From an uncultured Acidobacteriota bacterium (GTDB taxonomy: Bacteria; Acidobacteriota; Terriglobia; UBA7540), in NCBI GenBank assembly GCA_963804995.1, contig CAWDSK010000006.1, positions 1,600,001 to 1,664,000 of the forward strand: DNA of 64,000 bases, in the 5' to 3' direction. The translations under genes and the position numbers were made by a program. Below the pieces are notes generated by a model. It saw only the letters and a program-made list of their open reading frames with translations, searched no databases and was not told the DNA's origin. Shown piece by piece: positions 2,103 to 17,645 of this stretch (position 1 is its first letter; each line of letters opens with the position of its first letter).

Positions 2103-4015
2103 GTTGCGGTAGGGATACCGGTTACCCGGTACCCCCCGCACGGATCCGTACGTGCGCTGGTTAGCGCATACGGCTCTTATCTCGGATGTGTGGCGGCGAA
2201 CCGTTGGGATGGCCAAGGATGCACAACGTGCGGAGCAGGCAACCAGCAGGCCGCAAGCTTCCCCAGTCGGTCCCAGTTGAGGCGGTGGCGTTGACTGCGT
2301 TGACGCAGTTGTGTTCGCCACAGTCGGGTCAACCGTTCCCGAAAGATTCGCAGGCGGTTGAGGTTTCCCGGTACCGCGTGATAGTTGAAGTAGCCTTGCA
2401 CGACCGACCGGAGCCATTTACCCGTATCCGCGATGGGATCGTGCCGACGCTGCCGGAGTTGTTGCTTGAGTTCCTGCAACTTCCCCCGCAGGCGCTTGCT
2501 GATCGTCTTCCGCTTCACGGTAAATTGCCCCCTCCGGTTCTTCCCGCTGATATGCGTGAAGCCCAGAAAGTCGAACGTCTCCGGCTTACCTTCTCCTCTC
2601 CGTTTCCGGTAAAGTTCGGCAAACGGCCCGAACTCGATCCGGCGCGTTTTGTCAGGATGCAGTTCCAATCCAAACTTCCCCACCCGCTCCCGGAAATCCT
2701 CCAGAAAGCGGTCGGCTTCCGTCTGCGATTGGAATCCAAGGACCGTATCGTCGGCATACCGCACCACGACCACGTCTCCCCGGGCGTGCTTCTTGCGCCA
2801 CGCCTGCACCCACAGGTCAAAGACGTAGTGCAGATAGATATTCGCCAGCAGGGGCGAGACCACCGCCCCTTGTGGCGTACCCATCTCCGTCTCCGACCAT
2901 TCGCCTTCCTCCCTCACCCCGGCTTTCAGCCATTTCTGGATGAGCCGGAGAATCCGGGGGTCGGCGACGCGATGCTGCACGAACTTGAGCATCCATTCGT
3001 GGGATATCGAATCGAAAAATCCACGAATGTCCGCGTCAAGAACGTAGTTCACGTGCTTCACCGTGAGCGCGTACGAGAGCGCGTCCAGCGCTTGATGCTG
3101 GCTGCATCCCGGTCGAAAGCCATACGAGAAGCCCAGAAAGTCTTCCTCGTAAATCGCATTGAGGATGGTGACCACGGCCTGTTGGACGATCTTGTCCTCC
3201 AGTGCCGCAACCCCCAACGGACGTTGCCGCCCGTCGCCTTTCGGGATATACGCCCTTCGCGAGGGCTTCGCTCGGAATGCTCCGCGGTGGACCCGGCTGT
3301 GCAGATCGACGAGTCGACCTTCCAGCCCGCTTTCATACTCCTGCCACGTCATGCCGTCTACTCCCGGTGCAGCTTTTCGCTTCAAGGCGTAAAAGCTTTC
3401 CCGCAGCAGATCGACCGTTAAGTGGTGGAGCAAGGCCGTGAACTTCATCTCCCTGTGTTCCTTCGCGGCTTTCCGCACACCCGCGAGTCCCTGGGACACG
3501 CGTGCCCCGCTCTGTGTCGGGTGCGTGTTAGGCCAACGGGTGTTCTCCTTGATCAGCGGCCTTCCCTCCTCATTCTCCGCCAACGGCTTCCCGTCTTTGT
3601 TCAAATGATTCATCGGTACTGTTCCGCTGTCCGACTCCTCGAGAGCGTGCAGGCGGGCTGTACGGCCATCGCCTTTTCCCGCCGTCCGGCCACGATCTAC
3701 GGCGGCCGGCGCCTCCGAGGTCTCCCGGTTCTCGTGCAGAAAGTGTCTAGGCGTGTCTGGGGTCTACGACTACGCAGGACTGTGCCGGAACTCGCGTTGG
3801 CGTCCCGGCCTCATGTTGCCTTCCGTTTAGTCTGAAAACGTCGGCGTCCTGATTGGACATTTTCGAAGCTCAATACCCAGCCCACCTATTCCCCTGTTTA
3901 CGCTTCACCGTGCGCCTCACGACGCCCAGCGCAAAACTCGGGGCCGAGTGGATCGCTGCTCCTTCCTCGTGAGAAATTTTCATTCTCTGCTTTCTGCCGG
4001 TTTATCCCGGCGCAC
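2103..4015 (-). mobile_element. Group II intron, full length, ~1.9 kb
   Basis: 5' end GTGCGCCGGGATAAACC at 4015; domain V/VI GAGCCGTATGCG...GCACGTACGGATCCGTGCGGGG and terminal ...CCGCAAC at 2103; encodes an RT/maturase. Confidence 0.93.
2177..3613 (-). CDS. ltrA: Group II intron reverse transcriptase/maturase without an endonuclease domain
   Basis: IPKGDGRQRPLG, SYGFRP, GTPQGAVVSPLLANIYL, YADD, FDFLGF, maturase X domain (GYFNYH). Confidence 0.95.
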   Translation of the reverse strand: MNHLNKDGKPLAENEEGRPLIKENTRWPNTHPTQSGARVSQGLAGVRKAAKEHREMKFTALLHHLTVDLLRESFYALKRKAAPGVDGMTWQEYESGLEGRLVDLHSRVHRGAFRAKPSRRAYIPKGDGRQRPLGVAALEDKIVQQAVVTILNAIYEEDFLGFSYGFRPGCSQHQALDALSYALTVKHVNYVLDADIRGFFDSISHEWMLKFVQHRVADPRILRLIQKWLKAGVREEGEWSETEMGTPQGAVVSPLLANIYLHYVFDLWVQAWRKKHARGDVVVVRYADDTVLGFQSQTEADRFLEDFRERVGKFGLELHPDKTRRIEFGPFAELYRKRRGEGKPETFDFLGFTHISGKNRRGQFTVKRKTISKRLRGKLQELKQQLRQRRHDPIADTGKWLRSVVQGYFNYHAVPGNLNRLRIFRERLTRLWRTQLRQRSQRHRLNWDRLGKLAACWLPAPHVVHPWPSQRFAATHPR

Positions 4016-5937: not shown

Positions 5938-6067
5938 GCCTCCATTATTGGGAACCCGGCGGGGAAACGCAAGGGAGTTCGGGTAGTGGTGCAGTTTGAT
6001 GTTGTAGCGGCGAGTTTACCTCGCCATAGGGCGGCGGAGCCGCAACCAAAACGTGACACGGGCGGGA

Positions 6068-6215
6068 GAAGCTGTGAAATAATTCAGGAAAGAGCAAAAT
6101 CATTTCACGCAAAGGCGCAAAGTCGATGAGGCGCAAAGAAAACAAAGCAGTTGTTCATTCACAGTCTTTGCGTCTTGGCGCCTTTGCGTGAAATTGTTTA
6201 TTTTTTCACAGCTTC
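6068..6215. mobile_element. MITE-like element A1 (TIR GAAGCTGTGAAA, 3-bp TSD GGA) in a REP loop
   Basis: GAAGCTGTGAAA...TTTCACAGCTTC; removal restores the hairpin CACGGGCGGGACGCCCGTG. Confidence 0.75.
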
Positions 6216-6277
6216 GGACGCCCGTGGCACAACGTAGGGCCCAGCGGCGAAAGAATCGAGTCCAGATCATGGTGTTC

Positions 6278-6384
6278 TCAGCTTTCAGCTATCAGGTCTT
6301 AGCTATCAGCTCTCAGCTATCAGCGATCAGCCACGGCCTCCTGGCCCACCGGGTCTTTAGCTGGGAGCTGAGAGCTGATCGCTT
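6278..6384. repeat. Heptamer tandem repeats (TCAGCNN / GCTGANN)
   Basis: tcagctt tcagcta tcaggtc ttagcta tcagctc tcagcta tcagcga; same family as 1007-1072. Confidence 0.7.
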
Positions 6385-6469
6385 CATTCATACCTCAGCG
6401 CCATCATGGGATCGACCTTCGCGGGTGGCGCATACGTGCCGCCTTTTGGCATGTATGCGATCACAACAT

Positions 6470-6610
6470 TCAGTCCATAGAGAGCATGGAGTCATCCTTC
6501 AGAAAATAAAATCTCCAACGGGACCACGGCCAGTCGCCGGGTTTCTCAACCAATTTGCGGGTAACCAGAGGCAGGTGATTGAGACCGTAGAAATGTTTCT
6601 GCCGGGGCAC
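6470..6610 (-). pseudogene. Internally deleted REP-associated tyrosine transposase (RAYT) flanked by REP hairpins
   Basis: Manual translation MPRQKHFYGLNHL fused to VTRKLVEKPGDWPWSRWRFY (RAYT-like N and C termini, HUH core missing); hairpins at 6422-6459 and 6637-6677. Confidence 0.7.
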
Positions 6611-6750
6611 CCGGTCATCTTACTACCTTTGAAGGCCGCATACGAACGCAAAGAACGCGTACGTCTGCGCTACCGCTACGCATACGGGCCGACCGCTGGG
6701 GCCCTGAGAGTTCACGCGGGAGTGGGAAGGACGCACCCAGCGCCGCTTGA

Positions 6751-6906
6751 CGCCCGGACCTCACCTCGCGCCCTTTGCGCTTCATTCTGGTACGTGAATA
6801 CTTGATTGCCTACGCGCCCGAGGAAAAACCTTTGTGGGTTGTCGCCGTCATGCACGGACGGCGCAGCCCGCGCATCATGGCCGCAATTCTCAGAGGCAGA
6901 GATTAA
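6751..6906 (+). pseudogene. 3' remnant of a ParE/RelE toxin gene
   Basis: Reads RPDLTSRPLRFILVREYLIAYAPEEKPLWVVAVMHGRRSPRIMAAILRGRD*; no 5' half. Confidence 0.65.
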
Positions 6907-6928
6907 CTCCCACCCCCCTGTGTTTTTC

Positions 6929-6973
6929 TTGACAGAAGAATTCTGCTTGTATAGTGTAACGATACGCCATACA
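6929..6973 (+). promoter_or_regulatory. Putative sigma70 promoter and operator of higBA
   Basis: TTGACA at 6929, TAGTGT 17 bp downstream, imperfect palindrome GTGTA..TACAC. Confidence 0.5.
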
Positions 6974-6989
6974 CTTGAAAGGACGGAGC

Positions 6990-7268
6990 GTGATCGAGAG
7001 CATAAAACACAAAGGTCTTAAACGGCTCTATGAGAAAAACGACCGCAGCGGCATCCGGCCCGATCTGGTGGACAAGGTGCAGAAAATTCTCTCCGCTTTG
7101 GAAGCGGCGGAAGGCCCCGGCGATATGGTCCTGCCCCTGTTCCGGTTTCATCCGCTAACAGGAAACCGGCGCGGCACGTACTCAGTCACGGTTAAGGCCA
7201 ATTGGCGCGTTACGTTCAGCTTTCGGCAAGGAGCCGCTTGCGACGTGGATTTAGAGGATTATCACTAA
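6990..7268 (+). CDS. higB: HigB-family (RelE/ParE superfamily) toxin
   Basis: IESIKHKGLKRLY...FHPLTGNRRGTYSVTVKANWRVTF...DLEDYH. Confidence 0.9.
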   Translation: MIESIKHKGLKRLYEKNDRSGIRPDLVDKVQKILSALEAAEGPGDMVLPLFRFHPLTGNRRGTYSVTVKANWRVTFSFRQGAACDVDLEDYH

Positions 7269-7281
7269 CGGAGGACAGAAC

Positions 7282-7581
7282 ATGCCGATGAAAAAACCCA
7301 ACCATCCCGGCGATCTTATCCGGGATTGTCTTGATGAGCTGAAGATCAATGTTACGGACGGTGCCAAGGCGCTCGGCGTGACGCGTGCGACGCTTTCCCG
7401 CATTCTGAATGGCAAGGCCAGCGTATCCCCGGAAATGGCCGTGCGTCTCGAAAAGGCACTCGGGAGTTCGGCGGGCTTTTGGCTTCGGCTCCAACTCAAC
7501 TACGATCTGGCGCAGATACAGGCGCGAAGCGCAAAAATTCAGGTGCGCCGCCTTGCTGCGCCGTTGCAAGTGGCGCTTTGA
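7282..7581 (+). CDS. higA: HigA-family HTH antitoxin
   Basis: HPGDLI, ALGVTRATLSRILNG, SPEMAVRL, FWLRLQLNYDL. Confidence 0.92.
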   Translation: MPMKKPNHPGDLIRDCLDELKINVTDGAKALGVTRATLSRILNGKASVSPEMAVRLEKALGSSAGFWLRLQLNYDLAQIQARSAKIQVRRLAAPLQVAL

Positions 7582-7678
7582 CCGTTTTAGAGAGAGTGAA
7601 CTCTGCCCCCGCCGTGTTTCTAGCCCCGGAAGAAAAGTCTCTGTGGGTTGTCGCAGTCAGAGGGGTAAAATAGTTGCT

Positions 7679-7772
7679 GACCTCACCTCGCGCCCGTTGC
7701 GCTTCATTCTGGTACGTGAATACTTGATTGCCTACGCGCCCGATGGCCGCAATTCTCAGAGGCAGAGAGTAA
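7679..7772 (+). pseudogene. Second, internally deleted copy of the ParE 3' remnant
   Basis: Direct repeat of 6757-6906 lacking the middle segment; a third fragment lies at ~7623-7657. Confidence 0.7.
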
Positions 7773-7886
7773 CCCCGCTCCTTCATTTCGCGTGTTTCGC
7801 AAACACTCCTTTGCGCAACGCAGGCTGTGGATTGTTGAAGGGGAAACGGTGTCGGGAAACGGGGGTGGCCCTGGAAACGGTACCTG

Positions 7887-8035
7887 GAAGCTGTGAAAAA
7901 ATTGACAATCTCGCGCAGAGACGCAGAGGCGCAGAGATACGAAATAAATAACTACTTTATTTTCTTTGTCGCCTCTGCGCCTCCGCGTCTCTGCGCGAGA
8001 TGCTTTTGCTCGTTCCGGAATTTCTTCACACGTTC
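7887..8035. mobile_element. MITE-like element A2 (3-bp TSD CTG) in a REP loop
   Basis: GAAGCTGTGAAAAAA...TTCACACGTTC; removal restores GGAAACGGTACCTGACACCGTTTCC. Confidence 0.75.
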
Positions 8036-8101
8036 CTGACACCGTTTCCCCCACCGTTTCCCCCTTAGGATTGAGGAATGAAGGCCCCGGCTGGACGACG
8101 T

Positions 8102-9171
8102 TTAAGGCTTCCGCGTCGGTATAACCTTTCTCTCTCCAAAGTATACTGCGGAAACTTCCGAACGGCGGATGAACAGTGCCTCGCGATCACCCAAGGAGGA
8201 CAGGATCACGTAATACCCCTCTCCAGTCTGATCCAGAACCTTGACATTAACGACTGTCGAGTCGGTCCACTGAGGCTGCTTATCCAGATAGAGTACGGCG
8301 GGCATTGGGGCACCACCACCGAATTTCTGCTGCATCTCGCCGTAAATAAAAAACGTGTAGTACGAAATCAGAAGAACCGTAACGAGCCAGTTTCCCCAAT
8401 GCAATGCTTTGCGGACGGGGTCCCTGGCCCGGGTCACGATTGACGCCACAACCCCCGCTGCAAAGTACCACAGGGCTAGGTGCTTCGTCTGCCATGAGGC
8501 CTCGCTCGTGTCAAGCAGCATCGCGAAGAAAAGAAGTGCCCAGCTTGAAATGATAAGCAATACACAACCTCCTGGCCTCCTATCGATGTAACGAATGATT
8601 GGCACAAACGACGCGTAATACAACATGAGCGCCGCCGCCTGCAGAAGCTCCACCCACTCAGGCATGTCACCCCCGATCGCCGCTGGGCTTATGAGCAGAA
8701 ATCGCGAAATAAATCCCGTAACTATCGTGGTGAGTATGAATGCAGACAAGCGGGCCAGTTTTGGGCAAATGCCACCTCAGGGCTTCGAGGCACCGCCCAG
8801 GTAGGAAGTTCCACGAACCGCGTGAACCCAAAATGGAAAGCGGCTGCGGGTAGGGTGCTCAGGATAGCGAACATGAAGCCCGTGAAGAAGAGTCTCCCGC
8901 GAATCGGGTTGAACTCCATGAAACCGAACTGCGCCTCGTACGCAGATACGATTATGAACCCCACTCCGTACGTCAAGGCCAGGGCCGTGGCCGTCGCACG
9001 GGAGATGGCCTCGATTCCCCACTTTGGAGCGGGGGCCTGAGCATCGAGATTGTCACTATTTTCGGCCACGCATTTAGATTGCGCCGGTGCGGCTAACGCC
9101 GGGCGGAAGCATCCTCGATCTTGACAGTACCATGAAGCGGGGCACGTTGCTATTGCCGGTAGCGTAGACAT
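8102..9171 (-). pseudogene. Multi-pass membrane protein of unknown function, split into two frames (8722-9171 and 8102-8749)
   Basis: Consecutive hydrophobic ORFs overlapping out of frame. Confidence 0.55.
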
Positions 9172-9270
9172 CGCCCCTTATGTGCGCGCGCTTTGCGCTC
9201 CTCTGCGACCAACGTGGCCGCAAACAATCAAATCCATTTGGCCGTAAAACGGCCGAACCGTGCTTCTGGA

Positions 9271-9323
9271 GCGGGTAGCGCATCAGAGTCTCTGAGAGGC
9301 GAGACTCTGATGGCGCTACCTGC
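9271..9323. repeat. GGTAG-type REP palindrome related to the deleted-RAYT REPs
   Basis: GCGGGTAGCGCATCAGAGTCTC...GAGACTCTGATGGCGCTACCTGC. Confidence 0.65.
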
Positions 9324-9394
9324 TTAAGATCCAGCAAGGAGGTATCTAGCAATCGTGCCGCGAGGTCGTAGTCTAATTGTCTGCTGCTGCGAAC

Positions 9395-9797
9395 TTAATC
9401 GGACATGTCAATTTCTTCTTGCAGCTGCTCATGGAGCCGACTTTCCGGCATCTTTAAATCTTCCGATTCCGGATCTTTCTGTCTCTCAATTTCACGTACT
9501 GTTTCACTGAGCTTCTGGAAATTGCTCCACACGGTGCCGGTCTCGGTCTGTTTTGAACCGATGTAGTGCTTCCCGGCTATCCAATAGAGATTTATCCAAT
9601 GGAAAAATACGCTGTATGCAAGCTCATCACTCAATGCGTCGAGCTTCACGGAGAGTCCTACCGTATCGAAGAAATCAAATACGTCCTCTGCCTCCTCTTC
9701 GTACGTCCTAGAAAGGAGTGCCTTTGCAGCATTCGACCGAGTGGCCCTGAAATTTGGCTCGTTGAAGCGCGCATCGAACTTAAGCACGATGTCAACT
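9395..9797 (-). pseudogene. 5'-truncated hypothetical protein (DUF4760-like)
   Basis: VDIVLKFDARFN...VFDFFDTVGL...YW; no N-terminal segment or RBS visible. Confidence 0.5.
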
Positions 9798-10538
9798 TCC
9801 CCAAATGGCTTTTGCTATGTCGCGAAGATCGTGGGACCTGTTCAATGGCGCGAGATTGCTGGCGACCATTACTACTGCAGATCGGTAAAGTGGGTGGGGA
9901 AACGGCTGAAAACGGACCTTTCAGAGACTCTTCAGAAGAAGATTGGCACAAGGCAAACATTTCGGGAGATCGAGGACGAGGGATGCAAGAAAGAGATTGC
10001 AAAGCTTGTTGGAATGGTGGACGAGGGCACTGGCGAACCGCCAGATCATGGCCAGGGCAAACGTAATTCTCGAAAACCTGCCGACCTTAGGGGGCAGCTC
10101 AGCAGCTATGAGTACGTGATTAAGGGTGGCAAGCGCAAAGCCTTTCGCCCCCACAAAGATTTCCAACTTCGTTTGGAGCGCTATTTGGTCAAAGTCGGCG
10201 TTTCTGATTTTACGGCGGAACTAAACTACGTCGACGTGTCCTTCTCACGTGGAGGACAACCGTTTATCGGGGAAGTGAAGGTTACAAATGGATATATCAA
10301 CTCGCGGCAGGCCTTTCGAGCAGCATTAGGCCAGGTCCTAGAGTACCGCTTCACTCGAGATTGGAAAGCCGCACCACACATGATCATCTTTTTGGATCAG
10401 GAAGTTGACGCCGCGAGATTGGCGCTCGCTGCACAACTGAAAATTTCAGTCGTCGTGGAAGCAGAGAATGGAGCATTCCAGCTTGCCAATTCTTATCAGA
10501 GCAATGTGATAAATTCAATTTTTCCACCGCTACCTTAG
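9789..10538 (+). CDS. PD-(D/E)XK restriction-endonuclease-like protein, probably 5'-truncated
   Basis: YVDVSF...GEVK, AFRAALGQVLEY; appears AT-richer than the backbone. Confidence 0.6.
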   Translation: MSTSPNGFCYVAKIVGPVQWREIAGDHYYCRSVKWVGKRLKTDLSETLQKKIGTRQTFREIEDEGCKKEIAKLVGMVDEGTGEPPDHGQGKRNSRKPADLRGQLSSYEYVIKGGKRKAFRPHKDFQLRLERYLVKVGVSDFTAELNYVDVSFSRGGQPFIGEVKVTNGYINSRQAFRAALGQVLEYRFTRDWKAAPHMIIFLDQEVDAARLALAAQLKISVVVEAENGAFQLANSYQSNVINSIFPPLP

Positions 10539-10564
10539 CAAAGCGCCGCGGGAAACGGTGTCAG

Positions 10565-10682
10565 GAACGTGTGAAAAAATGCCAGGCCACGGATTAGCAC
10601 GGATTCGCTCGGATGAAAAGAGAGGACTTATCCGTGCTGATCTGTGTTAATCCGTGGCTCCGACCGATTTTTTCACAGCTTC
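10565..10682. mobile_element. MITE-like element A3 (3-bp TSD CAG) in a REP loop
   Basis: GAACGTGTGAAAAAA...TTTTTCACAGCTTC; removal restores GGAAACGGTGTCAGGTACCCTTTCC. Confidence 0.75.
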
Positions 10683-10779
10683 CAGGTACCCTTTCCTCTT
10701 GGTCGCGTGTGTCGTGGGGCACCCATTGGCTTTTCAGATCTCCCCAAGACTTTTTTTAGGGCCACGTGCTCTTCCCTCA

Positions 10780-17093: not shown

Positions 17094-17645
17094 ATGAGAG
17101 ATTGGCCACACAGTCCGGCGCATCGTTTTACGCCCGGGGGAACCTGCATGGTGACGGCGGGAACGTACCTCAAAGCGCCTTTCTTCCGAGGCGCGGACCG
17201 ATTGGAATACCTTAGCGGGATGCTCCTGGATCTTGCCGAAAAATACTTATGGCAGCTACAGGCCTGGGCGGTCTTTCCCAACCATTATCACTTCGTCGCC
17301 GTATCCCCGCCGCAGGGCGCGTCGCTCGTACAACTTACCCGGCATCTTCACGGACTTACCGCGATCGAAACCAATCGCCGGGACAACGCGGTGGGGCGTC
17401 ACGTTTGGTATCAATATTGGGATAAGGAATTGACCTTTCAGCGGTCCTACCTTGCACGCCTGAGTTACGTGCATAAGAACGCGGTTCATCACGGCCTGGT
17501 GCGGGAACCGTCTCTCTATCCCTGGTGCTCGGCGGGTTGGTTCCAGCGCGAGGCGGCAACGTCCTTTTACAAAACCGTGGTGGGGATGAAGACTGATCAA
17601 GTTCAGGTGACGGATGATTACACGGTCGACATCTCAGATATCTGA
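17094..17645 (+). CDS. REP-associated tyrosine transposase (RAYT, Y1/HUH)
   Basis: HUH motif NHYHF, VWYQYWD, catalytic YVHKN, YPWCSA; flanked by REP doublets. Confidence 0.9.
   Translation: MRDWPHSPAHRFTPGGTCMVTAGTYLKAPFFRGADRLEYLSGMLLDLAEKYLWQLQAWAVFPNHYHFVAVSPPQGASLVQLTRHLHGLTAIETNRRDNAVGRHVWYQYWDKELTFQRSYLARLSYVHKNAVHHGLVREPSLYPWCSAGWFQREAATSFYKTVVGMKTDQVQVTDDYTVDISDI

What the first reader, a model, noticed from the sequence alone, without database searches (positions are those of the whole stretch)
6068..10682. Mini-transposon family with fixed ends, different repeat cargo, and insertion into REP hairpin loops
Seen: three 118-149 bp elements (6068-6215, 7887-8035, 10565-10682) share ends GAAGCTGTGAAA/GAACGTGTGAAA. 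Each has a 3-bp duplication (GGA, CTG, CAG), and removing it restores a REP hairpin, from two different REP families. Each interior is a different inverted-repeat doublet (CACGCAAAGGCGCAAAG; CGCAGAGACGCAGAG; CCACGGATTAGCACGGATT). Inference: a non-autonomous element mobilised in trans that recognises hairpin structure rather than sequence, and that captures or is invaded by other repeat families. I do not recognise this arrangement as a described system.
Basis: partly seen in the sequence, partly recalled or inferred. Interest (0 to 1): 0.75.

Follow-up and report, generated by a model that had tools for sequence, protein, structure and literature searches.

The report
Mini-transposons aimed at palindromic repeats
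The three short gene-less transposons belong to a family of about 90 copies in this genome that sit mostly at the centre of small palindromic repeats, and they are likely moved by two related IS1182 enzymes, each of which appears to choose its own repeat sequence rather than any hairpin.

Summary
The three elements are MITEs: 88 paired copies (99-291 bp), 70 with a 3-bp duplication. An intact 1769-bp IS1182 (IS-A, 5 near-identical copies) has the same ends. So does a sister IS1182 (IS-A2), a deleted remnant here but intact in relatives.

Insertion falls at the centre of dispersed palindromes, but sequence matters. One family holds 58 copies (31 empty); a same-shape family holds 1 (11 empty); another 0 (195 empty). 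IS-A targets (elements 2, 3) pair no better than shuffled half-sites. In relatives the MITEs mostly follow the resident transposase's target family, whatever their interior.

Elements 1 and 2 are one scaffold (73% identical), not separate cargos. Some interiors resemble arms beside GxxExxY genes or free REP-type doublets; capture is inferred. No strain-level empty allele was found.

REP-targeting ISs, hairpin-targeting IS1182 members and MITEs are known. The combination in IS1182 was not found in my searches. The scan earlier noted a similar IS1182 remnant, and GxxExxY arms, on other DNA.

The parts
6068..6215 (.). MITE 1 (148 bp), 149-bp scaffold, CGCAAAG-arm variant; ~16-bp terminal inverted repeats
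6057..6067 (.). Left half of the target palindrome (8-bp stem arm) plus first GGA copy (6065-6067)
6216..6226 (.). Second GGA copy (6216-6218) plus right stem arm; target family used by IS-A2 in G017, G002 and G006
6097..6199 (.). Interior inverted arms of MITE 1 (6097-6125 / 6171-6199) around an A/T-rich centre
7887..8035 (.). MITE 2 (149 bp), CGCAGAG-arm variant, member of a 16-copy cluster; outer end GAAGCT-type, inner end GAACGT-type
7873..7886 (.). Left half of the imperfect target palindrome plus CTG (7884-7886)
8036..8049 (.). CTG (8036-8038) plus right half of the target; family used by IS-A
7908..8001 (.). Interior inverted arms of MITE 2 (7908-7936 / 7973-8001); same arm word flanks a GxxExxY gene at C1:265699
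10565..10682 (.). MITE 3 (118 bp), CACGGAT-arm type; single paired copy here, same type in five relatives
10551..10564 (.). Left half of target plus CAG (10562-10564); same family as MITE 2's target, opposite orientation
10683..10696 (.). CAG (10683-10685) plus right half of target
10586..10658 (.). Interior inverted arms of MITE 3 (10586-10614 / 10630-10658)

Best explanation
These are IS1182-family MITEs: one pool of gene-less elements with shared ~16-bp ends, likely mobilised in trans by two sister DDE transposases (IS-A and IS-A2), each predicted to recognise its own degenerate palindromic target sequence and to cut 3 bp apart at its centre. SHOWN: shared ends; 3-bp duplications centred on palindromes; an intact IS-A whose copies sit in the C[AT]G-centred family that holds elements 2 and 3; an IS-A2 (remnant here, intact in relatives) whose copies sit in 8-bp-stem, 3-nt-loop families such as the one holding element 1; strongly unequal use of palindrome families; one interior type found in different targets in different genomes. 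INFERRED: that these enzymes moved the MITEs; that element 1 was placed by IS-A2 before its deletion, and elements 2 and 3 by IS-A; that specificity lies in the protein; that new MITE types arose when the ends enclosed a pre-existing repeat doublet (GxxExxY-type arms or REP dimer) and then amplified as a unit.
For: Cognate IS: 5 copies of 1769 bp, 0-2 nt apart, same end at both sides, 5 of 5 with duplication; NF033551 374.7 bits against cut-off 270. IS-A2 remnant at C6:1712980 has a GAAGCT-type end in a GGA-family half-site and is 90% identical to an intact 526-aa enzyme in G006, 45-47% to IS-A. Occupancy in G000, filled of 88 / empty: CACGGSCR 58/31, CCCAGGSC (same geometry) 1/11 (p=2e-4), 7-nt-loop family 5/160, CCCTCTCC 0/195, CAG family 11/11. 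IS-A clade in other Acidobacteriota: 51 of 72 with duplication; 48 scored targets pair 4.94 of 12 against 5.40+-0.29 for shuffled half-sites. G017 IS-A2: 8 of 9 copies in CACGGSCR, 1 degenerate; its MITEs 10 of 10 there. G018 IS-A2: 10 of 11 in CCCAGGSC, 1 in CCCACGGC; its MITEs 8 of 9 read in CCCACGGC, none in CACGGSCR. Both genomes hold both families empty (157/37 and 16/35). The 99-bp interior type sits in the GGA family in G017 (9 of 9) and mostly in CAG-type sites elsewhere.
Against: No transposition was observed, and no strain-level empty allele was found: 14 relatives have unrelated DNA at element 1's position, no run holds the strain, and none of the three window sites has an uninterrupted paralogue in the BLAST test. 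Non-CAG targets pair more than shuffled half-sites (7.84 vs 6.8; the 19 non-dominant ones 6.05 vs 4.16, p=4e-4), so symmetry or a hairpin may be needed besides sequence. Taken singly, the G017 and G018 filled/empty tests are borderline (p=0.048, 0.051), and copies are not independent. G018's MITEs and its IS favour different, though related, families. The link between end variant and target seen in G000 fails in G002, where 6 of 6 MITEs with one GAACGT end sit in the GGA family. 18 of 88 short copies lack a duplication.
Confidence: 0.78

Rival explanations
1. Structure-first targeting: the transposase recognises an extruded hairpin and duplicates its loop; family bias only reflects loop size, extrusion ease or protection by other proteins.
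For: Minor targets from at least five unrelated families are all hit at or next to the symmetry axis, with pairing above half-site shuffles. IS-A2 variants all use 8-bp stems with 3-nt loops of different loop sequence. IS1272/TnSha1 of this family target hairpins without a primary consensus (PMC5678879, PMC4923244, passages; loop-only duplication is drawn there as model pathway c).
Against: Same-geometry families are used 58/31 versus 1/11 in G000, and oppositely in G017 and G018. IS-A targets are not hairpins near the cut, which covers two of the three window elements.
Confidence: 0.12
2. Co-mobility: MITE and target palindrome spread together as one composite moved by the repeat's own enzyme (RAYT or GxxExxY), so apparent targeting is inherited from few insertions.
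For: Many GGA-family copies share long composite flanks. The sister IS in G020/G003 always has nearly the same ~25-bp flanks, with 0-2 empty exact-pattern sites per genome.
Against: Identical MITEs sit in several unrelated target families, with duplications that vary with the local loop (GGA, AGA, CGA, TCA, ACC). Different interiors and full-length ISs use the same point. Only 1 of 16 RAYT-like genes has a target half-site within 600 bp.
Confidence: 0.05
3. On the interiors only: repeat doublets invaded a ready-made MITE chassis, rather than being enclosed by ends.
For: A 99-bp arm-less type exists. All types share an A/T-rich central motif (information content 13.3 vs about 7 shuffled; rows not independent). 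The ~290-bp cluster shows a second doublet nested in an older MITE.
Against: Sub-terminal spacers differ between types (by eye). Free REP doublets outside MITEs already carry similar A/T-rich linkers. No matched chassis with and without arms was seen.
Confidence: 0.3

Closest known systems
REP-targeting insertion sequences: ISPsy8 and IS1397/ISKpn1 (IS3), ISRm22 (IS4), IS621/ISPpu9/ISPpu10 (IS110) (Tobes and Pareja 2006, PMC1525189; passages read)
   Same: Insertion at the symmetry axis of dispersed palindromes. ISPsy8 makes a 3-bp duplication. The transposase is held responsible for the choice (IS1397/ISKpn1, as cited there). Hybrid copies with unmatched duplications arise by recombination (ISRm22), as here.
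   Different: That paper lists IS3, IS110, IS4, IS256 and IS5, not IS1182 by name. Here two sister enzymes share ends, and most insertions are gene-less MITEs.
IS1182 family, IS1272/TnSha1 (PMC5678879, PMC4923244; passages read; both cite Siguier et al. 2015, not seen, for palindrome-targeting members)
   Same: Same transposase family (NF033551); palindromic targets.
   Different: IS1272 deletes the hairpin, makes no duplication and shows no sequence consensus. These elements duplicate 3 bp, keep the target, and prefer particular families.
Bacterial MITEs (Correia/NEMIS, RUP, Nezha; PMC3733652 and PMC3184786, passages read)
   Same: 70-300 bp, 15-30-bp terminal repeats, non-coding, strongly folding, moved in trans. 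Correia elements carry an internal IHF site.
   Different: At least seven interior types between the same ends, several of them other repeat families; targets are palindromic repeats.
ssr9 module of ISPpu9 (PMC12288879; abstract and outline only)
   Same: Gene-less selfish unit propagated by the transposase of a REP-targeting IS.
   Different: IS110 chemistry through circles; no terminal inverted repeats or DDE-type duplication (family knowledge).
REP dimers inside long palindromes (A. variabilis GTAG-15, H. neapolitanus CGTC-1; PMC3733652, passage)
   Same: REP dimer enclosed by a constant inverted frame that does not occur empty.
   Different: No IS, duplication or target was assigned there.

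Membership tests
IS1182 family (autonomous partner IS-A) | Single-ORF DDE transposase matching the family model | tested here: met
   NF033551 374.7 bits, cut-off 270; PF05598, PF01609, PF13751; 506 aa
IS1182 family (autonomous partner IS-A) | Terminal inverted repeats and target duplication | tested here: met
   16-bp ends; 5 of 5 with 3-bp duplication
IS1182 family (IS-A2) | Transposase of the same family | tested here: inconclusive
   The remnant has PF13751 and a partial NF033551 match below cut-off. Intact relatives are 45-47% identical to IS-A over ~490 aa but were not scanned against the model.
IS1182 family | Catalytic activity on these ends | not testable with these tools
   Acidic motifs align by eye; no solved homologue
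MITE | 70-300 bp, 15-30-bp terminal repeats, no coding capacity (PMC3733652) | tested here: met
   99-291 bp, ~16-bp ends; too short for a transposase; the interiors were not scanned for small ORFs
MITE | Multi-copy with target duplication | tested here: met
   88 paired copies, 70 with 3-bp duplication
MITE | Cognate autonomous IS with the same ends | tested here: met
   IS-A in G000; IS-A2 in five relatives
MITE | Filled and empty orthologous alleles | tested here: inconclusive
   Relatives too distant, no same-strain run. Paralogous empty sites for 57 of 75 rebuilt sites, 14 with at least 30 bp each side at 85% or more.
REP (for the targets) | Short, dispersed, multi-copy, mostly intergenic palindromes | tested here: met
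   31 and 11 empty exact-pattern copies; 2 of 75 insertions lie inside an ORF of 200 aa or more
REP (for the targets) | Flanking a cognate RAYT gene | tested here: not met
   1 of 16 RAYT-like matches has a target half-site within 600 bp, and that one is a weak match. I call them REP-like by form only.
IS1272-type structure-dependent stem-loop replacement | Target hairpin deleted, no duplication | tested here: not met
   Target kept, 3-bp duplication in 75 of 93
IS1272-type structure-dependent stem-loop replacement | No primary-sequence preference | tested here: not met
REPIN (for the element itself) | REPs form the element's ends (family knowledge) | tested here: not met
   Ends are IS1182 terminal repeats; repeat arms are internal

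The most novel reading that the evidence does not exclude
A clade of IS1182 transposases has kept its ends while re-tuning target specificity to different palindrome families. One shared MITE pool is therefore redirected by whichever enzyme is resident. The pool repeatedly captures other selfish repeats (GxxExxY arm doublets, REP dimers) whose foldback or bendable centre helps two ends 100-150 bp apart to pair, so these repeats spread by hitch-hiking on a DDE transposase.
Probability: 0.35. Interest if true: 0.62.

Novelty: new variant of a known kind. Interest (0 to 1): 0.42.

Why it matters
It offers a natural panel for asking how a DDE transposase picks its target: enzymes 72-84% identical with the same ends but different palindrome preferences, each with many mapped insertions. 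IS1182 has no solved structure in my search. It adds IS1182 to the families seen aiming at REP-like repeats. It also shows three layers of selfish DNA nested (repeat doublet in MITE in palindrome), which can explain repeat pile-ups and some rearrangements in these genomes. It is confined mostly to one genus and built from known parts, so the general surprise is moderate.

Tried and rejected
Empty orthologous allele for element 1: the upstream gene is conserved in relatives, but the DNA after it is unrelated in 14 of 14 loci read. Elements 2 and 3 were not tested this way for their unique flanks.

Sequencing runs: three runs held only 5-7% of the words. No listed joint skips an element (19 joints not shown). 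A loose end at 7886 reads on as the empty target, but comes from other organisms' copies.

End variant as target determinant: strong in G000 (10/0 versus 11/112 ends) but contradicted in G002 and by GAAGCT-ended IS-A relatives that use CAG sites; rejected.

IHF-site reading of the central motif (consensus recalled, not from a call): good for the 99-bp type (7 of 14 exact to the looser consensus) and partly for two other types. It is no better than shuffles for element 1's arm type, and weak for element 3's (that type bin also held mis-sorted longer elements). Kept as a lead only. Three HU/IHF-family genes exist.

dif-like reading (recalled): no convincing chromosomal dif was found for comparison; dropped.

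RAYT link of targets: not found. PDB sequence search: no homologue.

Rows dropped: 7 of 100 paired rows (364-1902 bp, not 1769 bp); 7 of 79 loci without an end pair; 3 of 51 targets (two nested in another IS end, one with a short flank); 8 of 40 loci without an end pair.

Three papers were not held, so the Siguier reviews and the Wilde papers were seen only as citations. No supplements were read; ISfinder/TnPedia were not available and may already list such elements.
Full report
OBSERVATION. The three elements are present exactly as described, fold strongly and carry internal inverted arms. The window is C6:1600001-1664000 of a 7.55-Mb genome. Relatives of its transposase lie in records titled Acidobacteriota, with one exception. 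A relaxed end search gave 395 ends and 100 paired rows. Of these, 88 are 99-291 bp, five are 1769 bp, and seven of other lengths were dropped. A 3-bp duplication flanks 70 of 88 short and 5 of 5 long elements. Several of the 18 without one have mirror-image flanks (for example TCC|GGA), and some are hybrids of two interior types. This is what recombination between copies gives, as described for ISRm22 (PMC1525189, passage).

THE MOBILISERS. The 1769-bp element (IS-A) encodes a 506-aa IS1182 transposase. Its five copies differ by 0-2 nt, so it moved recently (inference). All five sit in C[AT]G- or TGG-centred sites of the kind that holds elements 2 and 3. A second element with a GAAGCT-type end, at C6:1712980, has a small AbrB/MazE-like ORF (below Pfam cut-off) and an internally deleted transposase. 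It sits in a half-site of the family that holds element 1. Intact versions (IS-A2, 2043-2052 bp, 526 aa) occur in G002, G006, G008, G017 and G018. They are 72-84% identical to each other, 45-47% to IS-A, and the remnant is 90% identical to G006's. So two sister enzymes share nearly the same ends. That they move the MITEs is inferred from the shared ends, duplication size and targets.

STRUCTURE OR SEQUENCE. Rebuilt empty sites put the duplication at or next to a palindrome's centre in most cases: GGA 46, CAG 12, AGA 9, others 8, of 75. Three tests speak against structure alone.

(a) Occupancy in G000, filled of 88 / empty: 58/31 for CACGGSCR, 1/11 for CCCAGGSC with the same 8-bp stem and 3-nt loop (p=2e-4), 5/160 and 0/195 for two longer-loop families, and 11/11 for the CAG family. 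The longer-loop comparisons are confounded by geometry, and empty counts use strict patterns.

(b) IS-A relatives: 51 of 72 have duplications. Across 48 targets, pairing is 4.94 of 12 positions against 5.40 for shuffled half-sites; the 13 G000 CAG-type sites give 6.38 against 6.82. These targets are a degenerate palindromic consensus, not a hairpin at the cut.

(c) Genome contrast: G017's IS-A2 is in CACGGSCR 8 of 9 times and its MITEs 10 of 10. G018's IS-A2 is in CCCAGGSC 10 of 11 times, and 8 of 9 MITEs read (of 13 pattern matches) are in the related CCCACGGC family, none in CACGGSCR. Both genomes hold both families empty (157/37 and 16/35). The 99-bp interior type goes to the GGA family in G017 (9 of 9) and mostly to CAG-type sites in G000, G003, G005 and G020.

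Against my reading: non-CAG targets pair more than shuffled halves (7.84 vs 6.8; 6.05 vs 4.16 for 19 non-dominant sites), and several unrelated families are hit on axis. Symmetry or a hairpin may therefore be a co-requirement for IS-A2. The single-genome tests are borderline (p about 0.05), copies are not independent, and I chose which loci to fetch from the listings. End variants track targets in G000 but not in G002.

THE INTERIORS. G000's 88 copies fall into clusters of 39, 16, 13, 6, 2 and 2, plus 10 singletons. With 71 elements read from relatives (47 with duplication) I see, by eye, at least seven types: 128-bp and 149-bp octamer-arm scaffolds, a 118-bp CACGGAT type, two GTAG-REP-dimer types, and arm-less 99-bp and 96-bp types. 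Elements 1 and 2 are one scaffold (73%), and G019 has one arm of each kind. Element 3's type recurs in G002, G006, G013, G023 and G042.

The CGCAGAG-like word has 151 of 260 matches inside MITEs and 109 outside, some of them decayed MITEs. Element 1's word has 3 of 3 inside. All 6 GxxExxY (PF13366/TIGR04256) genes of G000 have tandem 8-9-mer arrays beside them, 5 of 6 on both sides, one with element 2's exact arm (by eye). Free GTAG doublets matching another interior are common (26 of 28 matches outside). So several interiors are other repeat families. Whether ends enclosed them or they invaded a chassis is not settled; I favour enclosure because spacers differ by type. A shared A/T-rich central motif exists, but its IHF likeness (consensus recalled) holds only for some types. 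The idea that foldback or a bend helps ends 100-150 bp apart to pair is inference; the 99-bp type folds poorly (z -0.2 to -2.2) and still amplified.

DISTRIBUTION AND EMPTY SITES. An exact end-to-end pattern matches 19 of 28 other genomes of the genus and 1 of 300 across the phylum. Family-level empty sites are plentiful (57 of 75). The targets are REP-like by form; a RAYT link was not found.

COMPARISON WITH PRINT. Seen as passages: PMC1525189, PMC5678879, PMC4923244, PMC3184786, PMC3733652. Seen as abstract and outline: PMC12288879. REP-targeting ISs with on-axis 3-bp duplication, transposase-determined choice, palindrome-targeting IS1182 members, MITEs and a gene-less passenger of a REP-targeting IS are all known. 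Searches for IS1182 + stem-loop + target, IS1182 + MITE, IS1182 + palindromic + REP, MITE + REP + Acidobacteria and GxxExxY listed nothing describing this family, judged from titles and abstract starts. The scan's own unchecked notes report a similar IS1182 remnant in a REP loop, and GxxExxY arms, in other genomes.

VERDICT. Real, and well explained as IS1182 MITEs aimed at palindromic repeats: a new variant of a known kind. The distinctive points are a MITE pool shared by sister transposases of different target preference, and interiors drawn from other repeat families. Interest 0.42.

Noticed in passing
window 7873-10696: MITEs 2 and 3 lie in two oppositely oriented copies of one palindrome family that bracket about 2.5 kb of unassigned ORFs (8102-8749, 9395-9787 DUF4760, 9741-10538). 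Both have GAAGCT ends outside and GAACGT ends inside, so they could act as a composite; the outer flanks (CTG, CAG) are not a direct duplication.
   Followed up: partly
G000:C3:366588-367838 and four or five more copies (L091): A third IS1182 (different ends) sits in the centre of a CCTTCTCCC-type perfect hairpin with CAG/CTG duplicated; flanks are near-identical among copies.
   Followed up: partly
G000 C1:265699, C2:6015, C6:1355485, C6:1573614, C8:117526, C9:66339 (L005-L010): All six GxxExxY genes have tandem 8-9-mer arrays beside them, each with its own word.
   Followed up: partly
L138-L163; L090:366-575: IS-A2 and its G020 sister carry a ~69-aa AbrB/MazE-like ORF upstream of the transposase (below Pfam cut-off); possible regulator.
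   Followed up: partly
L171-L176 (G020, G003): A sister IS (1963-1964 bp) always sits in one GGA-loop hairpin with nearly constant flanks, and almost no empty copies remain; the target may be the end of another mobile element.
   Followed up: no
G000 C5:1160558, C8:44, C4:106129; G054:C215:642-739: Arm-less 98-99-bp MITEs with a central A/T-rich site; the distant genome G054 has two with the same ends.
   Followed up: partly
G000 C1:80241-80305, C1:216279, C1:567661 and others: An 11-mer of the MITE centre occurs 89 times (reversed control 2), also in other dispersed repeats unrelated to the MITE ends.
   Followed up: no
window 6975-7581: HigB/HigA toxin-antitoxin pair between MITEs 1 and 2, flanked by duplicated 65-bp and 42-bp stretches (D11 and D20).
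   Followed up: no
window 2177-3613; 17094-17645: Reverse-transcriptase-like ORF (called a group II intron in scan notes) and a RAYT-like gene just under the NCBIfam cut-off with flanking repeats.
   Followed up: no
window 6278-6391, 1006-1073: Arrays of a 7-mer (AGCTATC-like) tandem repeat, another dispersed family.
   Followed up: no
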